64,000 nucleotides of DNA, taken from IMG/VR virus record IMGVR_UViG_3300025141_015556, one strand, 5' to 3'. Source of the stretch: a virus. Position numbers and translations under genes: made by a program. Shown in pieces: positions 334-8,078 of this stretch; position 1 is the stretch's first letter; every line of letters starts with the position of its first letter. Under the pieces are notes generated by a model, which had not been told where the DNA came from, searched no databases, and worked only from the letters and a program-made list of their open reading frames with translations.

Positions 334-549
334 CTAATTCCTTTTATTGCTTTTTCTTTCAAGGCGTTCGCGCTCTCGGATAGCCTTTCTTCGTTTTATT
401 TTTCTTTTAACAGATGGCTTTATATAGTGTGAGCATCTTTCACGATAACTTTCTAAGACTCGCTCCTTTTTAACTTTTTTTATAAAGCGTCTGATCAGCC
501 TATCTGAATTTTCACGTGGGCGCGCGCAAACACTAACATTAATAGCCAC
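334..549 (-). CDS. rpsU: Phage-encoded 30S ribosomal protein bS21
   Basis: 71 aa, very basic. Pattern V..R..E..DRLIRRFIKKVKKE.VL..YRER..YIKPSVKRK.KRRKA matches bS21. GTG start. Confidence 0.88.
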   Translation of the reverse strand: MAINVSVCARPRENSDRLIRRFIKKVKKERVLESYRERCSHYIKPSVKRKIKRRKAIRERERLERKSNKRN

Positions 550-558
550 TGAATATTC

Positions 559-1005
559 CTATTTCCCAGATTCTACATGCGCTTTCCAGTGCTTGCCAAC
601 TGCACCGAATAAGCCGTCTATATTAACGCCCTGATCTGTAGCCTCAACATGTGCTAGGGGGCCTTCGTAAGGTATTGGCGCGCCAGGAGCAGGACCCCCA
701 GATGACAAGGGACTTGTACCTTCAAAAAGGTTAATGCCGTTGTAAGAATCTTTTCCTATTGCATCCAAAAGTTTCTTTTTGTGTGCGTTGAATTTCTCTT
801 TTTGCTCTCTGATTGACCGTTGACGAGCCTCGTCGGACTGAATATTTGATTTACTTTGTGGCTGAGATTCAACAATTTGAGCGGCGCGCAGACCGGTAGT
901 CACCTCCGATATAATTCCTGATAATACGCCGTCTTCAAACATCACCTCCTTTATACATTCTTTTATTAAGGGCTTAAGAATTTCTTTTAATTGTTTTTTA
1001 TTCAT
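559..1005 (-). CDS. Hypothetical head-module protein (possible prohead core or internal protein)
   Basis: Directly downstream of the prohead protease. The N-terminus has repeated L/I-K-E sites (LKEILKPLIKECIKE). Confidence 0.5.
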   Translation of the reverse strand: MNKKQLKEILKPLIKECIKEVMFEDGVLSGIISEVTTGLRAAQIVESQPQSKSNIQSDEARQRSIREQKEKFNAHKKKLLDAIGKDSYNGINLFEGTSPLSSGGPAPGAPIPYEGPLAHVEATDQGVNIDGLFGAVGKHWKAHVESGK

Positions 1006-1608
1006 CTAGTCCTCTAAAATTTCATTTAATACGCGGTTAATTCTGTCTGCCTTTGTAAAGACCTCGTTGATTCTGTTTTTGTTTTCTCGCATCATAAACG
1101 CGCCAGGGGTGGAGGGCTCTGATACCATATCAAAACAGATTAATTGAAAATCGTCTTCGACCATGGTTTTTCCTGCACTTTCAGTAACAGAGCCCAAACC
1201 ACGAGAAGAGATTCCAATAGATACTCCCGAATCCACCAAAGAACGGAGGATGCCGCCAGATGGGGTATCCAAAACCTTCATTTTACCCATAACTTTGTTG
1301 GTATCCATCCAGATATCTGTTATTTGATGAGAGACGTTTCTAAGATTGATAACCGAATCTTCCGGGTGATCAAGTTCACCCAGTGCTCGGTTATCTTTTA
1401 CTAGTTTTTTATAGTTTTTAACCTCTCTTTCCAATATTGCTTGAGGATAAATGCGCCCGTTGCCATTTTGTGTTTCTGCCATTTGCATCATACCAGACAA
1501 CATCATGCCACCTTCGGCAACAAATTTCTTTTCAGCTTCTGTAAGGAGATCCTGACAGGAGCCCCCATCGCAAAGCTCATAATATTCTCGGAGAAGTTGT
1601 TGGGTCAT
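1006..1608 (-). CDS. Prohead core protein protease (T4 gp21-like)
   Basis: Motifs NGNGRIYP, ALGELDHP, VSH, GISSRGLGS and FDMVSEPSTPGA. Start placed at MTQQLLRE (1608), which gives an ATGA overlap with the upstream gene. Confidence 0.93.
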   Translation of the reverse strand: MTQQLLREYYELCDGGSCQDLLTEAEKKFVAEGGMMLSGMMQMAETQNGNGRIYPQAILEREVKNYKKLVKDNRALGELDHPEDSVINLRNVSHQITDIWMDTNKVMGKMKVLDTPSGGILRSLVDSGVSIGISSRGLGSVTESAGKTMVEDDFQLICFDMVSEPSTPGAFMMRENKNRINEVFTKADRINRVLNEILED

Positions 1609-2273
1609 TCCGACGCCCATGGCGATATATTTTCAGGCTCGGGGAGCGCGCCGAGCGTCTGCGCTTGTCGATGCGCGGCTTGCTGGATGCGACCGGTGCC
1701 CCTACCGACACGGCGAGACCGCGGAGAACCGACATGCATAAGGAAAGCCCGTCGGGCGTTCCTTAGCTCCACTTTCATTCTGGTATTATTTTCTTTCTGC
1801 TCTCTTCTTACCAATAGTTTTTCAATGGCCTGCCCGGCCGGTGAACCTACGAGGCCCTCGGGATCTTCTTCATATGTTGGAGAGGTGTAGGCCGGCGGAA
1901 ACGCGGCCTTTGGCTCGCCCGCGGCGGGATTGCTCCAGGGTCTGGTCCGTTTTTCAAGTTCTTTACGAGTCATGCCGGGCTTCTCCTTGCCCGGTAAACC
2001 GGAGCCAACGGGGACCGGTCCTCTATATGGTCTTGAAGGTACGTGTACTTCGCCCGACTGTCCAGTCTTCGGTGAGGCCTCTATTATCTGATATACAAAT
2101 TCAACCAATTCTTGATTGGTAAAGCCATGCCTTAAAAGTGGAACTTCTAATCGTTTTGCTAATTCCTCAATAGCTGGATCTACCGCCTCTAGTAAAATTT
2201 CTCTATCGCGATCAGCCGTCTCATGCAAGAAATATCTTGGATCAATTCTTTTCTTATTTTTTTTATACCTCAT
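1605..2273 (-). CDS. Hypothetical protein with conserved N-terminal leader; candidate internal head protein
   Basis: Begins MRYKKNKKRIDPRYFLHE, shared with 2277..2801. The body is Pro/Gly/Arg-rich. GAGG SD. Confidence 0.6.
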   Translation of the reverse strand: MRYKKNKKRIDPRYFLHETADRDREILLEAVDPAIEELAKRLEVPLLRHGFTNQELVEFVYQIIEASPKTGQSGEVHVPSRPYRGPVPVGSGLPGKEKPGMTRKELEKRTRPWSNPAAGEPKAAFPPAYTSPTYEEDPEGLVGSPAGQAIEKLLVRREQKENNTRMKVELRNARRAFLMHVGSPRSRRVGRGTGRIQQAAHRQAQTLGALPEPENISPWASE

Positions 2274-2276
2274 GAT

Positions 2277-2801
2277 CTATTCCTCTGAAATCTCTCCTTC
2301 GCTGGCTGCAGCGAGGAACTGCCCTAAAAGTTTGGAAATTGCTCTTTGGTCCGCGGCTAACGCTTCTCGATGTCCTCTAAGAATGCCTAAGATATCTGCG
2401 ACAGCTTTAGAATCTGTCAAGCCGAGCTTTTTAGCATCATTTTCTAAATCTTTCAAAGCCTTCCCCATGGGCTTATCAAACTTCAAAAGAAGATTTTCAA
2501 TCTTTTTCTTGTGAAGGTCAATGATCTTTATTTTCTTTCCATAGCCATAAGCCCCCGTGGTGGCTCCTGCTATCGGAGTTTCCTCGGGAACTTTTCCGCC
2601 GCCGACCGCGGTGCGGATTGCGGAGGCTCTTTTGCCAACTGCTTTGCCGGCAGCCCCTACGGCACCCTTGGCTCCTGCGAAGCGACTCCGGAGTCGGTCG
2701 AAGACCCCCTCTTCAATTGCTTCGAGTTCCTTCTGGGTGAGGCCCTGCTCTTCCAAGAAATACCTAGGATCAATTCTTTTTGTATTTTTTCTGCGTGCCA
2801 T
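2277..2801 (-). CDS. Hypothetical protein with conserved N-terminal leader; candidate internal head protein
   Basis: Begins MARRKNTKRIDPRYFLEE, followed by a Gly/Ala-rich then helical body. GAGG SD. Confidence 0.6.
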   Translation of the reverse strand: MARRKNTKRIDPRYFLEEQGLTQKELEAIEEGVFDRLRSRFAGAKGAVGAAGKAVGKRASAIRTAVGGGKVPEETPIAGATTGAYGYGKKIKIIDLHKKKIENLLLKFDKPMGKALKDLENDAKKLGLTDSKAVADILGILRGHREALAADQRAISKLLGQFLAAASEGEISEE

Positions 2802-2821
2802 TGTATTATCCTCTTAAGCAG

Positions 2822-2872
2822 TCAACTACCCTTGCAACACCGTCGTACTGGTTGTAACATCCATTTAGTCAT
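2822..2872 (-). CDS. Putative 16-aa micropeptide MTKWMLQPVRRCCKGS (not in the ORF track)
   Basis: AAGGAG SD 6 nt before the ATG. It overlaps the stop of 2865..3191 and fills an otherwise empty gap. Confidence 0.5.
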   Translation of the reverse strand: MTKWMLQPVRRCCKGS

Positions 2873-3191
2873 GTCGTTCTCCTTTTCCTATTTGTATCCC
2901 GTCGTCGCAGATAATCACATTTAAAGCATATGATGTACCAGAACTCAGGCATCCAAGCAAAAATCCAGTTAAAAGATTATTGCCATCAAAAATAAATAGT
3001 TCCGTATAGTTATTAACGCCCCATAGAAATACGCCAACCCAAAATCCTATGCACATGGGGCAAGAAAAAAAATAATGTTTAGGTCTAATGCGATCTAAAA
3101 GCTTTGAAAAACAAAGCATCTGTGTAAGTCCATAAGCACAAAGAATGAAAAAAACCAAACTTTCAAGAATGGGCCACATTATGACTTGCAT
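2865..3191 (-). CDS. Small multi-TM membrane protein with CxxC motif (DUF1360-like)
   Basis: About three hydrophobic segments. FFSCPMCIGFWVG lies at the start of a TM helix. Confidence 0.6.
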   Translation of the reverse strand: MQVIMWPILESLVFFILCAYGLTQMLCFSKLLDRIRPKHYFFSCPMCIGFWVGVFLWGVNNYTELFIFDGNNLLTGFLLGCLSSGTSYALNVIICDDGIQIGKGERHD

Positions 3192-3192
3192 T

Positions 3193-3699
3193 TTAATATC
3201 TGTATCTTAATGGAATATAATAGTAACCCGGTCGCATGGCGCCCTTTTCGGCCTCTTGTGGAACTTCCCCGAGTTCTGTGCTGTCTCGATCGGTTGGATT
3301 TATGTAATAATCCTCCAGCTCTTTTTCATACGAATCAACAACAAGCTTAAGCTCTTCTTCTTCTTTTAAAAATTCAGAAATAACATACACAGCGGACTGC
3401 AAAGAATTCGCTTGTTTTGCTTCTGGAATTGCAGCCTCCAAAGAATTAAATATATTGCCCCCTTGAACCGATTCCCTTTCAACAACCCCCTTGTCTGCCA
3501 AATACTCAAAAAATCTAGACTGAATTGAGTAAGTATCTTCCATCGCAATGTCTTTTGGGAAGGCAATAACCTTATTCCCTTCTGGCAAAACGACAATATC
3601 AATTTTATCGTGATCCATAATCAAAAGATTGCCATCAAGCGTTTTTCTGGCGTTTAGCTCAACTGATGCTTGCGGCCCGCCGATGTCAATTTTAATCAT
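3193..3699 (-). CDS. Hypothetical head-module protein
   Basis: Likely start MIKIDIGG (3699), overlapping the stop of the upstream gene. Acidic C-terminal part. Confidence 0.6.
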   Translation of the reverse strand: MIKIDIGGPQASVELNARKTLDGNLLIMDHDKIDIVVLPEGNKVIAFPKDIAMEDTYSIQSRFFEYLADKGVVERESVQGGNIFNSLEAAIPEAKQANSLQSAVYVISEFLKEEEELKLVVDSYEKELEDYYINPTDRDSTELGEVPQEAEKGAMRPGYYYIPLRYRY

Positions 3700-4513
3700 T
3701 TGATCCGATTTCCTTAACAAGGTTCTGAATTTTAAGTACCGATAGAATCAATTCTTTGCCTAAAACGCTTGTTCTAAATTCTTCTAGTTTGTTTATCACT
3801 CTTTTTGCTTTTAAAAGCATGTCTTCATCAGTGTATATTTCTTCCATTTTTAAGGCGCCTTTAATTTCTTTTTTAAGGCGACCAATCTCTTCATTTAAAT
3901 AAGCTTTGAGCTCAATTCCGTTATCAGCAAAAGAAGAAATGTACTTACCCAAAAGAACTTTCTGTTCTTCCAAAAGAGAATTATATTCTTGATTATATTT
4001 TTCAACAAAAGATCGGTAAACCAAACTATCAACATGTTTCATTTCTTCAGCGCTTGTTTGAGTTCCTGACATTGTTTTTAATATTGCATCTTCGTACAAC
4101 ACACGCTGTTTTATAGGCGTTAGAGAATTAAAAATTGAGGAGACAGTCGCAAGAGATTTAAAATTTGGCACAAAATTGTTCCAAATGGCGCCGCCGAGTT
4201 CTTTATTAATTTTTTTAATTAGGCGTGTCTGTGTGTAAAACAACTTCTTCTTGTCTAGGGTTCGATGTGATTCTTTGACTTCGTTTAATAACTTTTCCGC
4301 GATAGTGGGCGCCACTTCGGTGGTCTCTAAAAGGGCTTTGTATAAATCGAACTCTTCGAACAGAATACTATTTTTATTAAAGTGCCCCCTTATGATTGAT
4401 ATAACAAGATCTCTTTTTTGAATATCTTTATGAATCAAAGATTTTGTTAATTCTCGTACGAGTACCTCATACAAAAATGCGGTATTACGCTTTTTATTGT
4501 GCTTTTTCCTCAC
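3692..4513 (-). CDS. Hypothetical helical protein downstream of the portal (possible prohead core component)
   Basis: 273 aa, overlapping the portal stop. The N-terminus MRKKHNKKRNTAFLYE resembles the leaders of 1605..2273 and 2277..2801. Confidence 0.6.
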   Translation of the reverse strand: MRKKHNKKRNTAFLYEVLVRELTKSLIHKDIQKRDLVISIIRGHFNKNSILFEEFDLYKALLETTEVAPTIAEKLLNEVKESHRTLDKKKLFYTQTRLIKKINKELGGAIWNNFVPNFKSLATVSSIFNSLTPIKQRVLYEDAILKTMSGTQTSAEEMKHVDSLVYRSFVEKYNQEYNSLLEEQKVLLGKYISSFADNGIELKAYLNEEIGRLKKEIKGALKMEEIYTDEDMLLKAKRVINKLEEFRTSVLGKELILSVLKIQNLVKEIGSND

Positions 4514-6488
4514 CTGTATTGCTCTCCATTATTGTATTTTTTGCCTCTAACTCGTCAATCAACTTTCTGACAGCAGCAGAATTTTCTAAAAACTGTTGCT
4601 CGCCTTCGTCCCTATAACTAGGTTGCAAGTTTTCATAAAGAGAGTTTATGTTTAAAAGGTCACTCCCTTTAAATATGTCTCTACGCGCACTTGCTTTAAC
4701 TGGACGTAGGTGGCTTTGTGATGTTCTCTTCGTAGGCCCAGACTTGTTTGTTTTTCTTTTATCTTTTATTTTCTTTACCGGATGGTACTCGCTCTTTGAG
4801 TATTTGTGGGGCGTGTCTTCTCTCCTTGCCGGCGCCGCCAGAAGGGAGCTCTCTTCTCCCTCGCCTTCTGGTTCTGTGCCCGGCGCTTCGGCGCCTAGAG
4901 CACCCGCTTCAGTGCCTGGAATTTCGGCGCCGAGTTCGTCGAGTTCCGGCTCCAAACCTAAATCTCCTCCAGGGGCCCCGAGACCCCCCATACCCATGCC
5001 GGCCTCTTCGGCTGCCATTTCTGCGACGGCCTCAAGAGAAGCTTGATATTTACGATCATAATAAGCCTCACGCTGATTGCGTAAAAATTCTTCATCCGAT
5101 TGCGCAAAAACGTTCTTAGAAATCCATCTCTTACTAAACATTCCTTCTGTTACGCTGTTAGCAATTTCAAACTTTGTACGCATGTGCTCTAATTGTTGCA
5201 TTTCAGCTAATTTGGAGGGGTTATTTAAAACGAGTTTAAATGAAATTAAATCTTGCCCTCGATAGCCAAGCGTAAAAAGATGGACAACGGCAATTTTTTC
5301 TAATTCCGAGACTAGCGTACGTTGCAGTCGTTGTATTGTTCTGGAGAACCGGATATCTTTTTGTGCTAATGTTGTCTTATCTTCTTCAGCGCCTTCCCCC
5401 GAAGACAAATATGATTGAGGAATCTTAATTGCTGAAAAGAGTTTATCTCTAACATATTTAACGTCTTCAATATCGTTGAGACTTGCGGCGCCCGGAAGCG
5501 TTGTTATATCTGATCCTACACCGCCCCTCATAGGAATAAAATAATCTTCTTCAACTGAAAGGGGGTTATATCGTAAATCCACTTTCCCAGTCGTTGCGTT
5601 TACAAGAGCATTTCTTTTTAAGGAAGTCTTTACCTTTTCCATATATTGCTCAACATCGTGAGGTGGTATATTGCCAACATCGATCTTAAAGACACGTCGT
5701 TCTGGCGCGCGAACAACCCTGTAGGCCAACATTGCATCTTCAATTAAAACTAATTGTCTCCAGATTCTACGGGCCGGCTCCAAAATTGAAGTACCGTACG
5801 GTGCATTCTTATCATTGCCAAGAATTCTAAAATGCCCAACTTGCCAATTTTCGAATGTCATCTGTGCACTATTCCACTGATACTGAACATAATTTGGATT
5901 TGTTGAATCTTGTCCTTCTAGCCTCTCTACTTCGTTTGGTGGCAAGCCAATAACATTTTTGACGCCGATTGCTTCATCGATGTCTAAATACAAAAAGAAA
6001 TCGCCATATTTGCACATCGTGCGGGCCCAGCCAAATGCATTAAATTCAATATTTAAAGCATCATAAAAAAGACTATGTAAAATTGTTTTAATTTCATCAT
6101 TTCGGCACTCTATTTCCATAAGCTGATTATATTCATTAGAGGTTGTCATTTCATCGGCGTAGATATCCAACGCAGAGGCAATCTCGGGCATATATTCCAT
6201 CTGATCAAAATCAATATACCTTTCATTGCGGTTTTGATTCCGCATTGCCATAGAGGTTAATAGGTTGTAGTTTCTAGATAAATTATCCTGAGCTGCCTTA
6301 AATTGTTGGCCACTAAGGCTCTTAAATCGGTGTTTATATTTATCAAGTGCAACACGGCGGTCTTGTCGCGTAAATTGAGCGCGATAGTTTATTAACGGAC
6401 CAGAAAATAGTCGGGTTAATCTTTTAAAAAGAGGAGAGCCCGGGTTTCTTGGATTGTTGGTGTGTTTAATGTTGTTGTCGGATGCCAT
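4494..6488 (-). CDS. Portal protein (T4 gp20-like) with long C-terminal extension
   Basis: Motifs PEIASALDIYADE, QLVLIEDAMLAYRVVRAPERRVFKIDVGNIP, EEDYFIP, ITTLPG and DIRFSRTIQRLQ. Confidence 0.95.
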   Translation of the reverse strand: MASDNNIKHTNNPRNPGSPLFKRLTRLFSGPLINYRAQFTRQDRRVALDKYKHRFKSLSGQQFKAAQDNLSRNYNLLTSMAMRNQNRNERYIDFDQMEYMPEIASALDIYADEMTTSNEYNQLMEIECRNDEIKTILHSLFYDALNIEFNAFGWARTMCKYGDFFLYLDIDEAIGVKNVIGLPPNEVERLEGQDSTNPNYVQYQWNSAQMTFENWQVGHFRILGNDKNAPYGTSILEPARRIWRQLVLIEDAMLAYRVVRAPERRVFKIDVGNIPPHDVEQYMEKVKTSLKRNALVNATTGKVDLRYNPLSVEEDYFIPMRGGVGSDITTLPGAASLNDIEDVKYVRDKLFSAIKIPQSYLSSGEGAEEDKTTLAQKDIRFSRTIQRLQRTLVSELEKIAVVHLFTLGYRGQDLISFKLVLNNPSKLAEMQQLEHMRTKFEIANSVTEGMFSKRWISKNVFAQSDEEFLRNQREAYYDRKYQASLEAVAEMAAEEAGMGMGGLGAPGGDLGLEPELDELGAEIPGTEAGALGAEAPGTEPEGEGEESSLLAAPARREDTPHKYSKSEYHPVKKIKDKRKTNKSGPTKRTSQSHLRPVKASARRDIFKGSDLLNINSLYENLQPSYRDEGEQQFLENSAAVRKLIDELEAKNTIMESNTGEEKAQ

Positions 6489-6491
6489 TTA

Positions 6492-8078
6492 TTAACCCTT
6501 TATAATAGTCATATATTGATCATTGAATTCCTGCGCATTTGCTGATTGTTCAACAAGTTTGGTTGCTTTGTGTCCGAGTTGGCCCGGAATAGTAGTAGAG
6601 AACTTAGTCTCTTTGGAAGAGATAGAAGAGATAAATTGTTTACTATATTCAACTCCTCGCTGGTTTTCCACCAAAACTGTATCCCTCACCCAACAACCAA
6701 TTGCTAAAGACATTATCAAATCATCATTATAACCCCTCATAGCCTGCGGTCGCCCATTATGCCAAATAAATGTTTTCATTTCTGAAATCAAGCGGTTAGA
6801 GTACAACTTAATTAGTTTGTTTCTCATAAACTCTTCCATTTTGGCAATAATGAGGGGTCTTGTTTTTGTCGAGGTGGTAAATCCCGGTATCGCATTCGTT
6901 TGCCATTGTGCTGTGATGGGATCAACGTAATCATGGGAACCTTTTGCAGAGTGATAAATATTATTATAGCCTTTATCTAATAGTTTTTTAAGAACAGCAA
7001 AGCCTATGTTATTGTTTTCAGCGACAATCATACAGTCGCCATATTCCTTGCCAACATTATAGAGCATATCAGCATAATCATCAGGAGTGGGTTTCCCTAT
7101 ATATTCTGCCGCAATAGACAAATCGGTTAAATCAAAAACGTGAAATGCAGAATTATCAGCCCCATCGCCACGAGCTATGTCAGCTGCGATCATATATGAT
7201 TTTTCAGGATTATATTCTTCCCAAATCCAATAGTTCCTATCAAAACCGGTGCGGTATTTTGGTTCACAAGCTTTTTCTATATACCACATCAAATCATCCG
7301 AATGAACAACTGTTTCGCCTGAAACATTAAAATTGCATTCAAGCTCTTGTGCAATTTGTCGTCGCGACATATTTTTGGTTTCTTTTTCAAACCATAGGCG
7401 GTCTCGATCTGGATGTACGTCCCACATCAAAGTGGTCATAAAAAAGTTGTTGGTACCACTTTCTGCCTCTACGCATGTTTTATGAAACCAATTGCCTACC
7501 CCATTGGGAGTAGACAGAGCGATACAACGACCTCCAGTTGATAAAGTGGGGTATAATGCTGTCCACAGCTCCTCTAATTTCTCAACATGGGCAGCCTCAT
7601 CGATAACCAACAAAGACAGAGCCTCTGAGCGGCCGACATCCCCCGATGTTGAGGCGGCTTTAATTTGTGATCCGTTATATAATTCAAAAGAGGTTCTATT
7701 ATCAATTGAAATCTCGGAGATGCGCATCCACTTTGGGAGGCTTTTCATAATTTTTTTAACTTTTCGTACAAGATTGGTGGATGTTTGTAATTTAGTGGCC
7801 ACGACAAGAATATTTTTATCGCGATGAAACAACATCAACCATACAACATATGCCGCCGTAATGGTCGATATTCCAAGCTGTCTTGCTTTCAATACAACAT
7901 TAAAACGATAATCATTAAAATCTTTTAAAAGATCTTTTTGGTATTCATAGGCATTAAAAGGAATAATGCCCCTTTGGGGGTGAGAAATCTTACAGTAATT
8001 TGTAGTAAAATAAGCCGGATCTTTACCGGCTTTAACGACTTCTTTAACTATTTCCTGTTTAGAGAGACTGTACCCCAT
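6492..8078 (-). CDS. terL: Terminase large subunit (T4 gp17-like)
   Basis: Walker A VLKARQLGIST, Walker B LLVIDEAAH, motif III LSTPNG, and RNase H-like nuclease motifs AADIARGDGADNS and NDDLIMS. Confidence 0.95.
   Translation of the reverse strand: MGYSLSKQEIVKEVVKAGKDPAYFTTNYCKISHPQRGIIPFNAYEYQKDLLKDFNDYRFNVVLKARQLGISTITAAYVVWLMLFHRDKNILVVATKLQTSTNLVRKVKKIMKSLPKWMRISEISIDNRTSFELYNGSQIKAASTSGDVGRSEALSLLVIDEAAHVEKLEELWTALYPTLSTGGRCIALSTPNGVGNWFHKTCVEAESGTNNFFMTTLMWDVHPDRDRLWFEKETKNMSRRQIAQELECNFNVSGETVVHSDDLMWYIEKACEPKYRTGFDRNYWIWEEYNPEKSYMIAADIARGDGADNSAFHVFDLTDLSIAAEYIGKPTPDDYADMLYNVGKEYGDCMIVAENNNIGFAVLKKLLDKGYNNIYHSAKGSHDYVDPITAQWQTNAIPGFTTSTKTRPLIIAKMEEFMRNKLIKLYSNRLISEMKTFIWHNGRPQAMRGYNDDLIMSLAIGCWVRDTVLVENQRGVEYSKQFISSISSKETKFSTTIPGQLGHKATKLVEQSANAQEFNDQYMTIIKG

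What the first reader, a model, noticed from the sequence alone, without database searches (positions are those of the whole stretch)
1605..4513. Shared N-terminal leader on unrelated proteins beside the prohead protease: candidate capsid-targeting and cleavage signal for injected cargo
Seen: two adjacent ORFs with unrelated bodies start MRYKKNKKRIDPRYFLHE (2220..2273) and MARRKNTKRIDPRYFLEE (2748..2801). Within KRIDPRYFL the DNA differs only at synonymous positions (CCA/CCT, AGA/AGG), which points to selection on the peptide. A third ORF (3692..4513) starts MRKKHNKKRNTAFLYE. Known: T4 internal proteins carry a short N-terminal capsid-targeting sequence (IPIII: MKTYQEFIAE) removed by gp21, which cleaves after (I/L)-x-E. 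The gp21 homologue here is the next gene downstream. Inference: this is a new, longer, basic packaging leader ending F-L-x-E that loads variable cargo proteins into the head for injection. It would be a modular protein-delivery system.
Basis: partly seen in the sequence, partly recalled or inferred. Interest (0 to 1): 0.85.

Follow-up and report, generated by a model that had tools for sequence, protein, structure and literature searches.

The report
Shared capsid-loading leader on phage proteins
Two unrelated small proteins encoded beside the head-maturation protease of an uncultured marine T4-like phage start with the same 18-residue tag, which about a thousand other phage protein families also carry. 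The tag most likely loads them into the capsid and is then cut off, as T4 does with its internal proteins, but this has not been shown experimentally.

Summary
Two adjacent minus-strand genes (1605-2273, 2277-2801), just upstream of the gp21-type (Pfam S77) prohead protease, start with the same basic 18-residue peptide ending F-L-x-E. Their bodies are unrelated.

- **Not a local duplication.** A profile of the peptide finds 982 protein clusters, and 149 of the best 150 carry it at residue 1. It occurs on viral contigs that share one T4-type head module.
- **Cut-site pattern.** The Glu is invariant. A second [LI]-x-E follows within 5-19 residues in about 80% of proteins. The rest of each body carries few such motifs, unlike the neighbouring scaffold-like proteins.
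- **Bodies.** They are hypervariable, fast-evolving, absent from two near-complete relatives, and exchanged with a second leader type.

Best reading (about 0.6): a capsid-targeting propeptide cut by the prohead protease, the analogue of the T4 internal-protein CTS. Packaging, cleavage and injection are all inferred. Most bodies are acidic and have no known domain.

The third ORF (3692-4513) is a conserved helical head-module protein, not cargo.

The scan has reported analogous leaders with other sequences on other phages. It has noted this sequence only in this genome.

The parts
2220..2273 (-). Leader of the 222-aa ORF (residues 1-18; basic run, then K-R-I-D-P-R-Y-F-L-H-E). Predicted cut after E18.
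   Evidence: Conservation across 133 unique proteins.
2163..2219 (-). Linker of the 222-aa ORF (residues 19-37) with back-up [LI]-x-E sites ending at E29 and E37.
   Evidence: One search lists the sites. Enrichment of a second site in the first 20 residues is shown.
1605..2273 (-). Cargo gene A, 222 aa. The body is an orphan, GC-rich and of low predicted order. Its stop overlaps the probable protease start (ATGA at 1605-1608).
   Evidence: dN/dS is about 1.3 against an 85%-identical homologue.
2748..2801 (-). Leader of the 174-aa ORF (residues 1-18, ending F-L-E-E).
2709..2747 (-). Linker of the 174-aa ORF (residues 19-31) with a second site I-E-E ending at E31. It aligns with the N-terminus of a type-2 leader protein.
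2277..2801 (-). Cargo gene B, 174 aa. Its body is homologous to a protein that carries a different (type-2) leader and sits just downstream of the protease in a related phage.
   Evidence: 37% identity over 130 aa, E 4e-18. dN/dS is about 0.7.
1006..1620 (-). gp21-type prohead serine protease. Its N-terminus carries L-L-R-E. The real start is probably the ATG at 1608, which gives 200 aa as in relatives.
   Evidence: Pfam S77 4.5e-31 and PHROG 207 4.4e-56. Relatives.
3692..4513 (-). Conserved 273-aa all-helical head-module protein with an invariant N-terminal H-N-K-K-R-N-T-A followed by F-L-x-E. It is rich in [LI]-x-E. It is a core gene, not cargo.
   Evidence: Homologues in cultured phages.
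559..1005 (-). Conserved 148-aa scaffold-like protein just downstream of the protease. It is very rich in [LI]-x-E (3.9 per 100 aa).
4494..6488 (-). T4-type portal protein (context for the head module).
   Evidence: Pfam Portal_T4 3.9e-82.

Best explanation
The first 18 residues (a basic run, then K-R-I-D-P-R-Y-F-L-x-E) form a modular propeptide. The proposed mechanism has four steps:

1. The propeptide docks otherwise unrelated accessory proteins onto the prohead core of a clade of uncultured marine T4-like phages.
2. Once the shell has closed, the gp21-type protease (1006-1620) cuts after the Glu of L-x-E. A back-up [LI]-x-E site lies 5-19 residues further on.
3. The body, which carries few further sites, stays whole inside the head, as T4 IPI-III do.
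4. The body may leave the head with the DNA at infection.

**Shown:** the leader's conservation, its position, the arrangement of motifs, its modularity, its dispensability and its link to this head module.

**Inferred:** docking, cutting, retention in the head and ejection.
For: 1. **Breadth and position.** A profile of the first 34 residues finds 982 representatives at E<=1e-3 (323 at E<=1e-10). In 149 of the best 150 the match starts at residue 1.
2. **Conservation outside the search key.** Among 133 unique proteins the Glu two residues after the Leu is present in 133/133, the following Thr in 118, the Arg three residues further in 110, and N, K and R before the key in 130, 124 and 120. Conservation collapses after that.
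3. **Selection on the peptide.** Invariant residues use many synonymous codons. Arg uses six codons, Pro four and Leu four.
4. **Arrangement of cut motifs.** A second [LI]-x-E occurs in the first 20 residues after the leader at 3.0-3.2 times expectation (z +13 and +15 in two data sets). The remaining body has 0.77 sites per 100 aa. The conserved neighbours p273 and p148 have 3.4 and 3.9 per 100 aa.
5. **Same cut-site logic in expected substrates.** The gp23-type capsid protein of relatives has E-L-L-R-E followed by Ser at the expected propeptide end, and the protease N-terminus has L-L-R-E. T4 gp24 reads E-L-L-R-E-S and gp23 reads F-L-T-E-A in the record. T4 gp21 cuts after L/I-x-E (PMC9026906).
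6. **Synteny.** Of 70 unique leader genes in loci where the protease is visible, 46 abut it, 13 are in tandem arrays just upstream, 11 lie 6-11 kb upstream on the same strand, and none is on the other strand. Five distant genomes with remote leader genes all have the S77 protease and the same head module.
7. **Accessory and fast-changing bodies.** The 127 bodies fall into 63 BLASTP clusters. G001 (94% complete) and G002 have no leader at all. dN/dS is 0.7-1.3 between near-identical phages.
8. **Modularity.** Five body families, including that of the window's 174-aa protein, also occur behind a different leader.
Against: - There is no direct evidence for packaging or cleavage, and no cultured phage carries the leader.
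- The depletion of [LI]-x-E in mature parts (ratio 0.70, z -3.1) did not replicate on independent representatives (ratio 0.99).
- Most bodies are net acidic (84% and 69% in the two data sets) and have no Pfam domain in 122 proteins. The window's two have low predicted order. This differs from the basic, compact T4 internal proteins.
- The leader bears no resemblance to the T4 CTS beyond F-[IL]-x-E.
- The 9-mer is far more conserved than a cut site needs, and its partner is unknown. The sets behind this observation were gathered with a key or profile that contains the 9-mer.
Confidence: 0.6

Rival explanations
1. The leader-bearing proteins are accessory prohead-core or scaffold components, positional counterparts of T4 gp67/gp68. 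The leader takes them into the core, but they are degraded and expelled during maturation. Nothing is delivered to the host.
For: - In the window they occupy the slot between portal and protease that genes 67 and 68 occupy in T4.
- Bodies are mostly acidic, rich in A/G/E/D and poorly ordered, and none has an enzyme domain.
- The depletion of internal cut motifs was not replicated.
Against: - Bodies carry 4-5 times fewer [LI]-x-E motifs than the scaffold-like neighbours p148 and p273.
- The genes are absent from close, near-complete relatives.
- They are hypervariable, and in other genomes they lie far from the head genes.
Confidence: 0.2
2. The leader is a recognition tag for some machinery other than the prohead. 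It could mark proteins for a modifying enzyme (as an earlier follow-up agent of this scan read the shared tag of phage RB43, linked to a radical-SAM enzyme), or target them to the membrane through the neighbouring CxxC membrane protein.
For: - In the window clade the leader genes directly follow a CxxC membrane protein and a conserved Cys-Cys micro-ORF.
- The precedent is earlier finding e1-127136.
- The extreme conservation of the 9-mer suggests one specific binding partner.
Against: - In G006-G010 the leader genes are 40-100 kb from that membrane protein, which stays in the head module.
- No enzyme recurs next to the leader genes.
- The invariant Glu and the clustered second [LI]-x-E are what a Glu-specific protease site predicts.
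Confidence: 0.1
3. The shared start is only a conserved DNA segment (a recent duplication, a recombination cassette boundary or a translation-initiation region) with no function as a peptide.
For: - The strong ribosome-binding site and part of the upstream region are also conserved.
- A conserved 5' segment would favour cassette exchange, which is observed.
Against: - There is abundant synonymous variation at invariant residues.
- The leader occurs on 982 protein clusters.
- It is conserved across phages whose protease is only 51-69% identical to the window's and whose portal is 51-57% identical.
Confidence: 0.03

Closest known systems
Capsid targeting sequence (CTS, MKTYQEFIAE) of phage T4 internal proteins IPI-III and Alt, removed by gp21 (PMC9026906, PMC8442874)
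   Same: - A short N-terminal tag shared by otherwise unrelated, dispensable, fast-evolving proteins.
- It ends in aromatic-[IL]-x-E.
- The phage encodes a gp21-family protease and T4-type portal and capsid proteins.
- Bodies carry few further cut motifs. T4 IPs are cut once.
   Different: - The leader is 18 rather than 10 residues long and strongly basic (median net charge +4), with no sequence similarity beyond F-[IL]-x-E.
- Bodies are mostly acidic, whereas T4 IPs are basic.
- A back-up cut site follows the leader.
- There are about a thousand body clusters, not three.
- At least one other leader family is exchanged on the same bodies.
- Nothing has been shown experimentally.
T4 prohead core proteins gp67 and gp68
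   Same: - Small genes between the portal and protease genes.
- They are processed by gp21.
- They are acidic.
   Different: - gp67 and gp68 are conserved and shape-determining, and are cut into fragments.
- The leader genes here are absent from close relatives and hypervariable, with few internal motifs.
- They can also lie far from the head genes.
Propeptides of inner-body and ejection proteins of phiKZ, 201phi2-1 and SPN3US, cut by a gp21-related protease (PMC9026906, PMC5694885)
   Same: - Many head proteins have N-terminal propeptides cut after Glu.
- The propeptides hold redundant cut sites.
   Different: - Those propeptides are long and not one shared sequence.
- The cut motif is S/A/G-x-E.
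- The phages are jumbo phages with a different head module.
RiPP-type or enzyme-recognition leaders (one conserved leader on many variable cores)
   Same: A conserved N-terminal leader on hypervariable downstream sequence, often in tandem gene arrays.
   Different: - No maturase is linked to the leader.
- Bodies are 40-400 aa proteins, not short cores.
- The leader ends in the head protease motif.
- The only constant partner is the head module.

Membership tests
T4-type capsid targeting propeptide (CTS) | Located at the extreme N-terminus of the carrier protein | tested here: met
   The motif starts 7 residues after the Met in 108 of 133 unique proteins. In 149 of the 150 best profile hits the match starts at residue 1.
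T4-type capsid targeting propeptide (CTS) | Ends in the prohead protease motif L/I-x-E | tested here: met
   L-x-E is invariant, and the Glu lies outside the search key (133/133).
T4-type capsid targeting propeptide (CTS) | The genome encodes a gp21-family prohead protease | tested here: met
   Pfam S77 in the window and in all five distant leader-bearing genomes.
T4-type capsid targeting propeptide (CTS) | Shared by unrelated, non-essential proteins | tested here: met
   63 body clusters among 127 bodies. The two window bodies are unrelated. The leader is absent from G001 and G002.
T4-type capsid targeting propeptide (CTS) | Sequence similarity to the T4 CTS | tested here: not met
   Only F-[IL]-x-E is shared. 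The rest is a basic run and I-D-P-R-Y.
T4-type capsid targeting propeptide (CTS) | Carrier bodies are basic, DNA-associated proteins cut only at the tag | tested here: inconclusive
   Cut motifs are sparse in the bodies, but 69-84% of bodies are net acidic. The window's two are +6 and +4.
T4-type capsid targeting propeptide (CTS) | The tag is sufficient to package a foreign protein, and the protease removes it | not testable with these tools
   This needs a fusion-packaging experiment and a protease assay.
T4-type capsid targeting propeptide (CTS) | The mature protein is retained in the head and ejected with the DNA | not testable with these tools
   This needs virion proteomics and infection assays.
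T4 gp67/gp68-type prohead core protein | Conserved core gene between portal and protease, cut into several fragments | tested here: not met
   The slot is empty in L008 and L009. Bodies are hypervariable and have few internal [LI]-x-E.
Leader recognised by a dedicated modifying enzyme (RiPP-like) | A maturase gene co-occurs with the leader genes | tested here: inconclusive
   No recurrent enzyme lies next to the leader genes in the window clade or in five distant genomes. No genome-wide co-occurrence statistic was run.

The most novel reading that the evidence does not exclude
This marine phage clade uses a set of at least three N-terminal address tags: the basic KRIDPRYFLxE type, a QLKQIIKEE helix type and an ENWRxFLxE type. 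In this reading the tags are interchangeable (exchange was seen between the first two) and all end at the cut site of the head protease. Together they would load a very large and rapidly changing repertoire into the capsid for co-injection with the DNA. That repertoire is on the order of a thousand protein families for the first tag alone, and includes RNA-repair-like enzymes on the third tag.
Probability: 0.3. Interest if true: 0.8.

Novelty: new variant of a known kind. Interest (0 to 1): 0.6.

Why it matters
If the leader is a packaging and cleavage tag, proteins delivered in the capsid are not a T-even peculiarity. They would be a large, fast-evolving arsenal in abundant ocean phages.

- About a thousand unannotated protein families would gain a location (inside the virion) and a likely time of action (the first moments of infection).
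- The tag would be a simple sequence handle for finding such cargo in metagenomes.
- It would also be a candidate module for loading foreign proteins into capsids of this phage group.
- The contrast between proteins with many cut motifs and proteins with few offers a computable way to tell scaffold proteins from cargo.

Tried and rejected
- **Family and structure searches on the window's cargo.** Pfam and PHROGs gave nothing for the two cargo proteins, p273, p175 or p148. Pfam on 122 leader proteins gave no family. The Atlas search for both cargo proteins returned only low-confidence models and unnamed viral clusters.
- **p273 fold.** The AlphaFold2 model is all-helical with pLDDT 68.5. Foldseek against the PDB found no match at E<=0.001.
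- **Cultured phages.** tblastn of the 174-aa protein against 50,697 phage records gave no hit even at E<=10, so no virion proteome can be consulted.
- **Whole genome.** None is held for this window.
- **Literature.** No paper contains the leader string or the type-3 string.
- **Late promoters.** A T4 late-promoter motif upstream of the leader genes was not found; TATAAATA occurred once in 121 upstream regions.
- **Other leaders in the window.** Type-2 and type-3 leaders are not present in the window.
- **Depletion of cut motifs in mature bodies.** This looked strong in the first data set but failed to replicate. I use it only as a contrast with the scaffold-like proteins.
- **Host clue from prokaryote genomes.** Only two probably mis-binned phage contigs turned up.
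Full report
**Observation.** All genes in the first 9 kb of the window lie on the minus strand. In the nine codons for K-R-I-D-P-R-Y-F-L the two copies differ only at CCA/CCT and AGA/AGG, both synonymous (sequence). A six-frame scan finds the motif nowhere else in the 64 kb. After the leader the two proteins are unrelated, with a best BLASTP hit of E 0.16 over 8 residues. So they are not full-length paralogues.

**Context.** The gene order on the minus strand is:
- large terminase (6492-8078)
- T4-type portal (4494-6488; Pfam Portal_T4 3.9e-82)
- a 273-aa protein (3692-4513)
- a 175-aa protein (3193-3720)
- a 108-aa CxxC membrane protein (2865-3191)
- the two leader genes
- a gp21-type protease (1006-1620; Peptidase_S77 4.5e-31, PHROG 207 4.4e-56)
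- a 148-aa protein (559-1005)
- ribosomal protein S21 (334-549).

The protease probably starts at the ATG at 1608. That gives 200 aa as in relatives, and an ATGA overlap with the stop of the 222-aa ORF. Relatives carry a gp23-type capsid protein a few kb further downstream. The nearest cultured phages are a Microcystis phage and Flavobacterium phages, with at most 48% protease identity.

**How widespread the leader is.**
- Of 21 IMG/VR loci found through the protease, 12 have a gene just upstream of it that starts with the same leader, on bodies of 92-343 aa.
- A degenerate DNA pattern for the 9-mer found at least 120 viral stretches. These gave 151 ORFs and 133 unique proteins.
- The same pattern in 596 Gb of prokaryote genomes gave six stretches. 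Two are true N-terminal leaders on small MAG contigs that look like mis-binned phage. Three lie outside any real gene, and one gave no in-frame motif.
- A profile of the first 34 residues, searched against 1.84 billion representative proteins, found 982 hits at E<=1e-3 and 323 at E<=1e-10. In 149 of the best 150 the match starts at residue 1.

**Conservation and selection.** The 9-mer is invariant by construction of the pattern search, so the informative positions are those outside the key. These are the Glu two residues after the Leu (133/133), the next Thr (118), an Arg three residues on (110), and N, K and R before the key (130, 124, 120). Beyond about residue 22 conservation collapses. At invariant residues the codons vary freely: six Arg codons, four Pro, four Leu, and both Tyr, Phe, Asp and Glu codons. 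Selection therefore acts on the peptide, not on the DNA. The 9-mer is identical in phages whose protease is only 51-69% identical to the window's and whose portal is 51-57% identical. Those genomes were, however, found through that 9-mer.

**Cut-site logic.** T4 gp21 cuts after L/I-x-E (PMC9026906). The T4 internal proteins are cut once, next to a 10-residue CTS (PMC8442874).
- The leader here ends in F-L-x-E, usually followed by Thr.
- Capsid proteins of relatives have E-L-L-R-E followed by Ser at the expected end of the propeptide, and the protease itself starts with L-L-R-E.
- The T4 record reads E-L-L-R-E-S at the start of gp24, F-L-T-E-A in gp23 and L-L-I-E-T in gp21. That these are the actual T4 cut sites rests on established knowledge, not on a test here.
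- A second [LI]-x-E ends 5-19 residues after the leader Glu in 97 of 123 bodies. Its density is 4.3 per 100 aa there against 0.77 in the rest of the body. The excess in the first 20 residues is 3.0-fold (z +13) and 3.2-fold (z +15) on the independent representatives.
- Redundant sites in propeptides are known from phiKZ (PMC9026906).

**Cargo or scaffold?** In the first data set the mature parts were depleted in [LI]-x-E. With one representative per cluster, 53 were observed against 76 expected (ratio 0.70, z -3.1). The control tripeptides were enriched, and the window proteome had a ratio of 1.23. On the 150 independent representatives the ratio was 0.99, still the lowest of five tripeptides but not depleted. 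I therefore do not claim avoidance. The robust contrast is with the conserved helical neighbours: p273 has 3.4 and p148 has 3.9 [LI]-x-E per 100 aa, with observed/expected ratios of 1.9 and 3.5. That is the pattern of scaffold proteins that get chopped up. The leader proteins show the opposite pattern, with sites stacked at the N-terminus and few afterwards, as in T4 internal proteins.

**The bodies.**
- The 127 bodies fall into 63 BLASTP clusters, 45 of them singletons. None of 122 has a Pfam domain.
- 84% and 69% are net acidic. The window's two are +6 and +4.
- Both window proteins are near-orphans, with one homologue each at 95% and 85% identity, and have low predicted order.
- Against those homologues, at dS of about 0.05-0.07, dN/dS is 0.7 and 1.3. 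The leader and the following 20-50 residues are unchanged apart from one T/V difference at residue 7 of the 174-aa leader, a position that also varies across the family. The counts are small.
- The genes are dispensable. The slot is empty in two close relatives. Two large records, 94% and 85% complete, have no leader anywhere.

**Modularity.** Five body families also occur behind a different N-terminus, a helix of the type Q-L-K-Q-I-I-K-E-E. The window's 174-aa body is 37% identical over 130 aa (E 4e-18) to a 156-aa protein that sits just downstream of the protease in L097 and starts with that second leader. The fetched loci hold 62 unique proteins with this second leader. They also hold 40 with a third leader, E-N-W-R-x-F-L-x-E, which shares its last residues with the first. 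One relative carries a hybrid of the third and first. It is not in this window.

**Where the genes lie.** Of the 70 unique leader genes in loci that show the protease:
- 46 abut it
- 13 form tandem arrays just upstream
- 11 lie 6-11 kb upstream on the same strand
- none is on the other strand.

In five 110-190 kb genomes with the same head module, the leader genes lie 40-100 kb from the protease, in islands of genes with the other two leaders. T4's internal protein genes are also remote from its head genes (my own knowledge, not checked here). Adjacency to the protease is thus a feature of the window's subclade, not of the system.

**The third ORF.** ORF 3692-4513 is a core gene present in every relative, with H-N-K-K-R-N-T-A invariant in 14 of 14. 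It has homologues in cultured Flavobacterium and Microcystis phages. The model is all-helical with moderate confidence, and the F-L-Y-E lies inside a confidently predicted helix. No PDB fold matches it. It resembles the leader in design, a basic run followed by F-L-x-E, but homology is not shown. It is not variable cargo, and it may be a core or scaffold protein.

**Mechanism and rivals.** My reading (about 0.6) is an address tag that binds a conserved component of the prohead core and is removed by the protease after L-x-E, leaving an intact body in the head. Ejection into the host is a further inference (about 0.3). The rivals are:
- an accessory core component that is degraded rather than delivered (0.2)
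- a tag for another machinery, such as a modifying enzyme or the neighbouring CxxC membrane protein (0.1). This is weakened because no enzyme recurs beside the genes, and the membrane protein stays in the head module when the leader genes are remote
- a mere DNA repeat (0.03), contradicted by the codon data.

**Comparison and novelty.** Functionally this is closest to the T4 CTS. Membership by sequence fails, because only F-[IL]-x-E is shared, and the charge pattern is reversed, with a basic tag on mostly acidic bodies. No paper in the library contains the leader. The scan has reported analogous tags with other sequences in other phages and the second leader type in another genome. I class the finding as a new variant of a known kind: large in scale, with tag swapping as a new element, but untested at the bench.

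Noticed in passing
window 334-549 (-): A ribosomal protein S21 gene (Pfam 1.1e-09) sits inside the head module, conserved in position in nearly all relatives and in Microcystis phage Mel-JY01.
   Followed up: partly
window 2822-2872 (-) and 2865-3191 (-): A conserved 16-codon micro-ORF ending C-C-K-G-S, with its own ribosome-binding site, overlaps the stop of the 108-aa CxxC membrane protein. It directly precedes the leader gene, and its DNA is conserved in many relatives.
   Followed up: partly
L147-L151, and 62 + 40 ORFs across the fetched loci: Two further N-terminal leader families (a Q-L-K-Q-I-I-K-E-E helix type and an E-N-W-R-x-F-L-x-E type) head many unrelated proteins, often in arrays together with the first type. 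The third type heads a 2H-phosphoesterase-like protein (Pfam tRNA_lig_CPD, 3.6e-05) next to a P-loop protein in G006, which suggests RNA-repair enzymes.
   Followed up: partly
P0003, P0005, P0024 (profile hits): Some leader proteins contain a second, internal copy of the linker module (N-E-T-V-N-R ... L-E-E) without the basic part. It looks as if two tandem cargo genes had fused, which would give an internal cut site between two bodies.
   Followed up: no
L145:5079-6161 (+), Flavobacterium phage immuto gp071: The gene just upstream of the protease in this cultured relative has H-F-I-A-E-A near residue 20, close to the end of the T4 CTS (F-I-A-E). It is a possible CTS-like site in a cultured phage that could be tested.
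   Followed up: no
window 1600-2100, 2500-2800, 4700-5100: There are GC-rich stretches (55-63% against about 38% elsewhere). They coincide with A/G/P/E-rich, probably disordered, segments of the two cargo proteins and of the C-terminal extension of the portal.
   Followed up: partly
window 559-1005 (-) and 3692-4513 (-): p148 and p273 are strongly enriched in [LI]-x-E (observed/expected 3.5 and 1.9), with conserved sites. They are candidates for protease-degraded scaffold or core proteins in addition to the gp22-like protein next to the capsid gene.
   Followed up: partly
L024, L027, L131 and others, 30-60 nt upstream of leader genes: In a subset of relatives a GC-rich hairpin (G-T-G-G-G-G ... 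C-C-C-C-A-C) followed by T-T-A-A-A precedes the leader gene in place of the micro-ORF end. It may be a terminator or a mobile regulatory cassette at the insertion hot spot.
   Followed up: no
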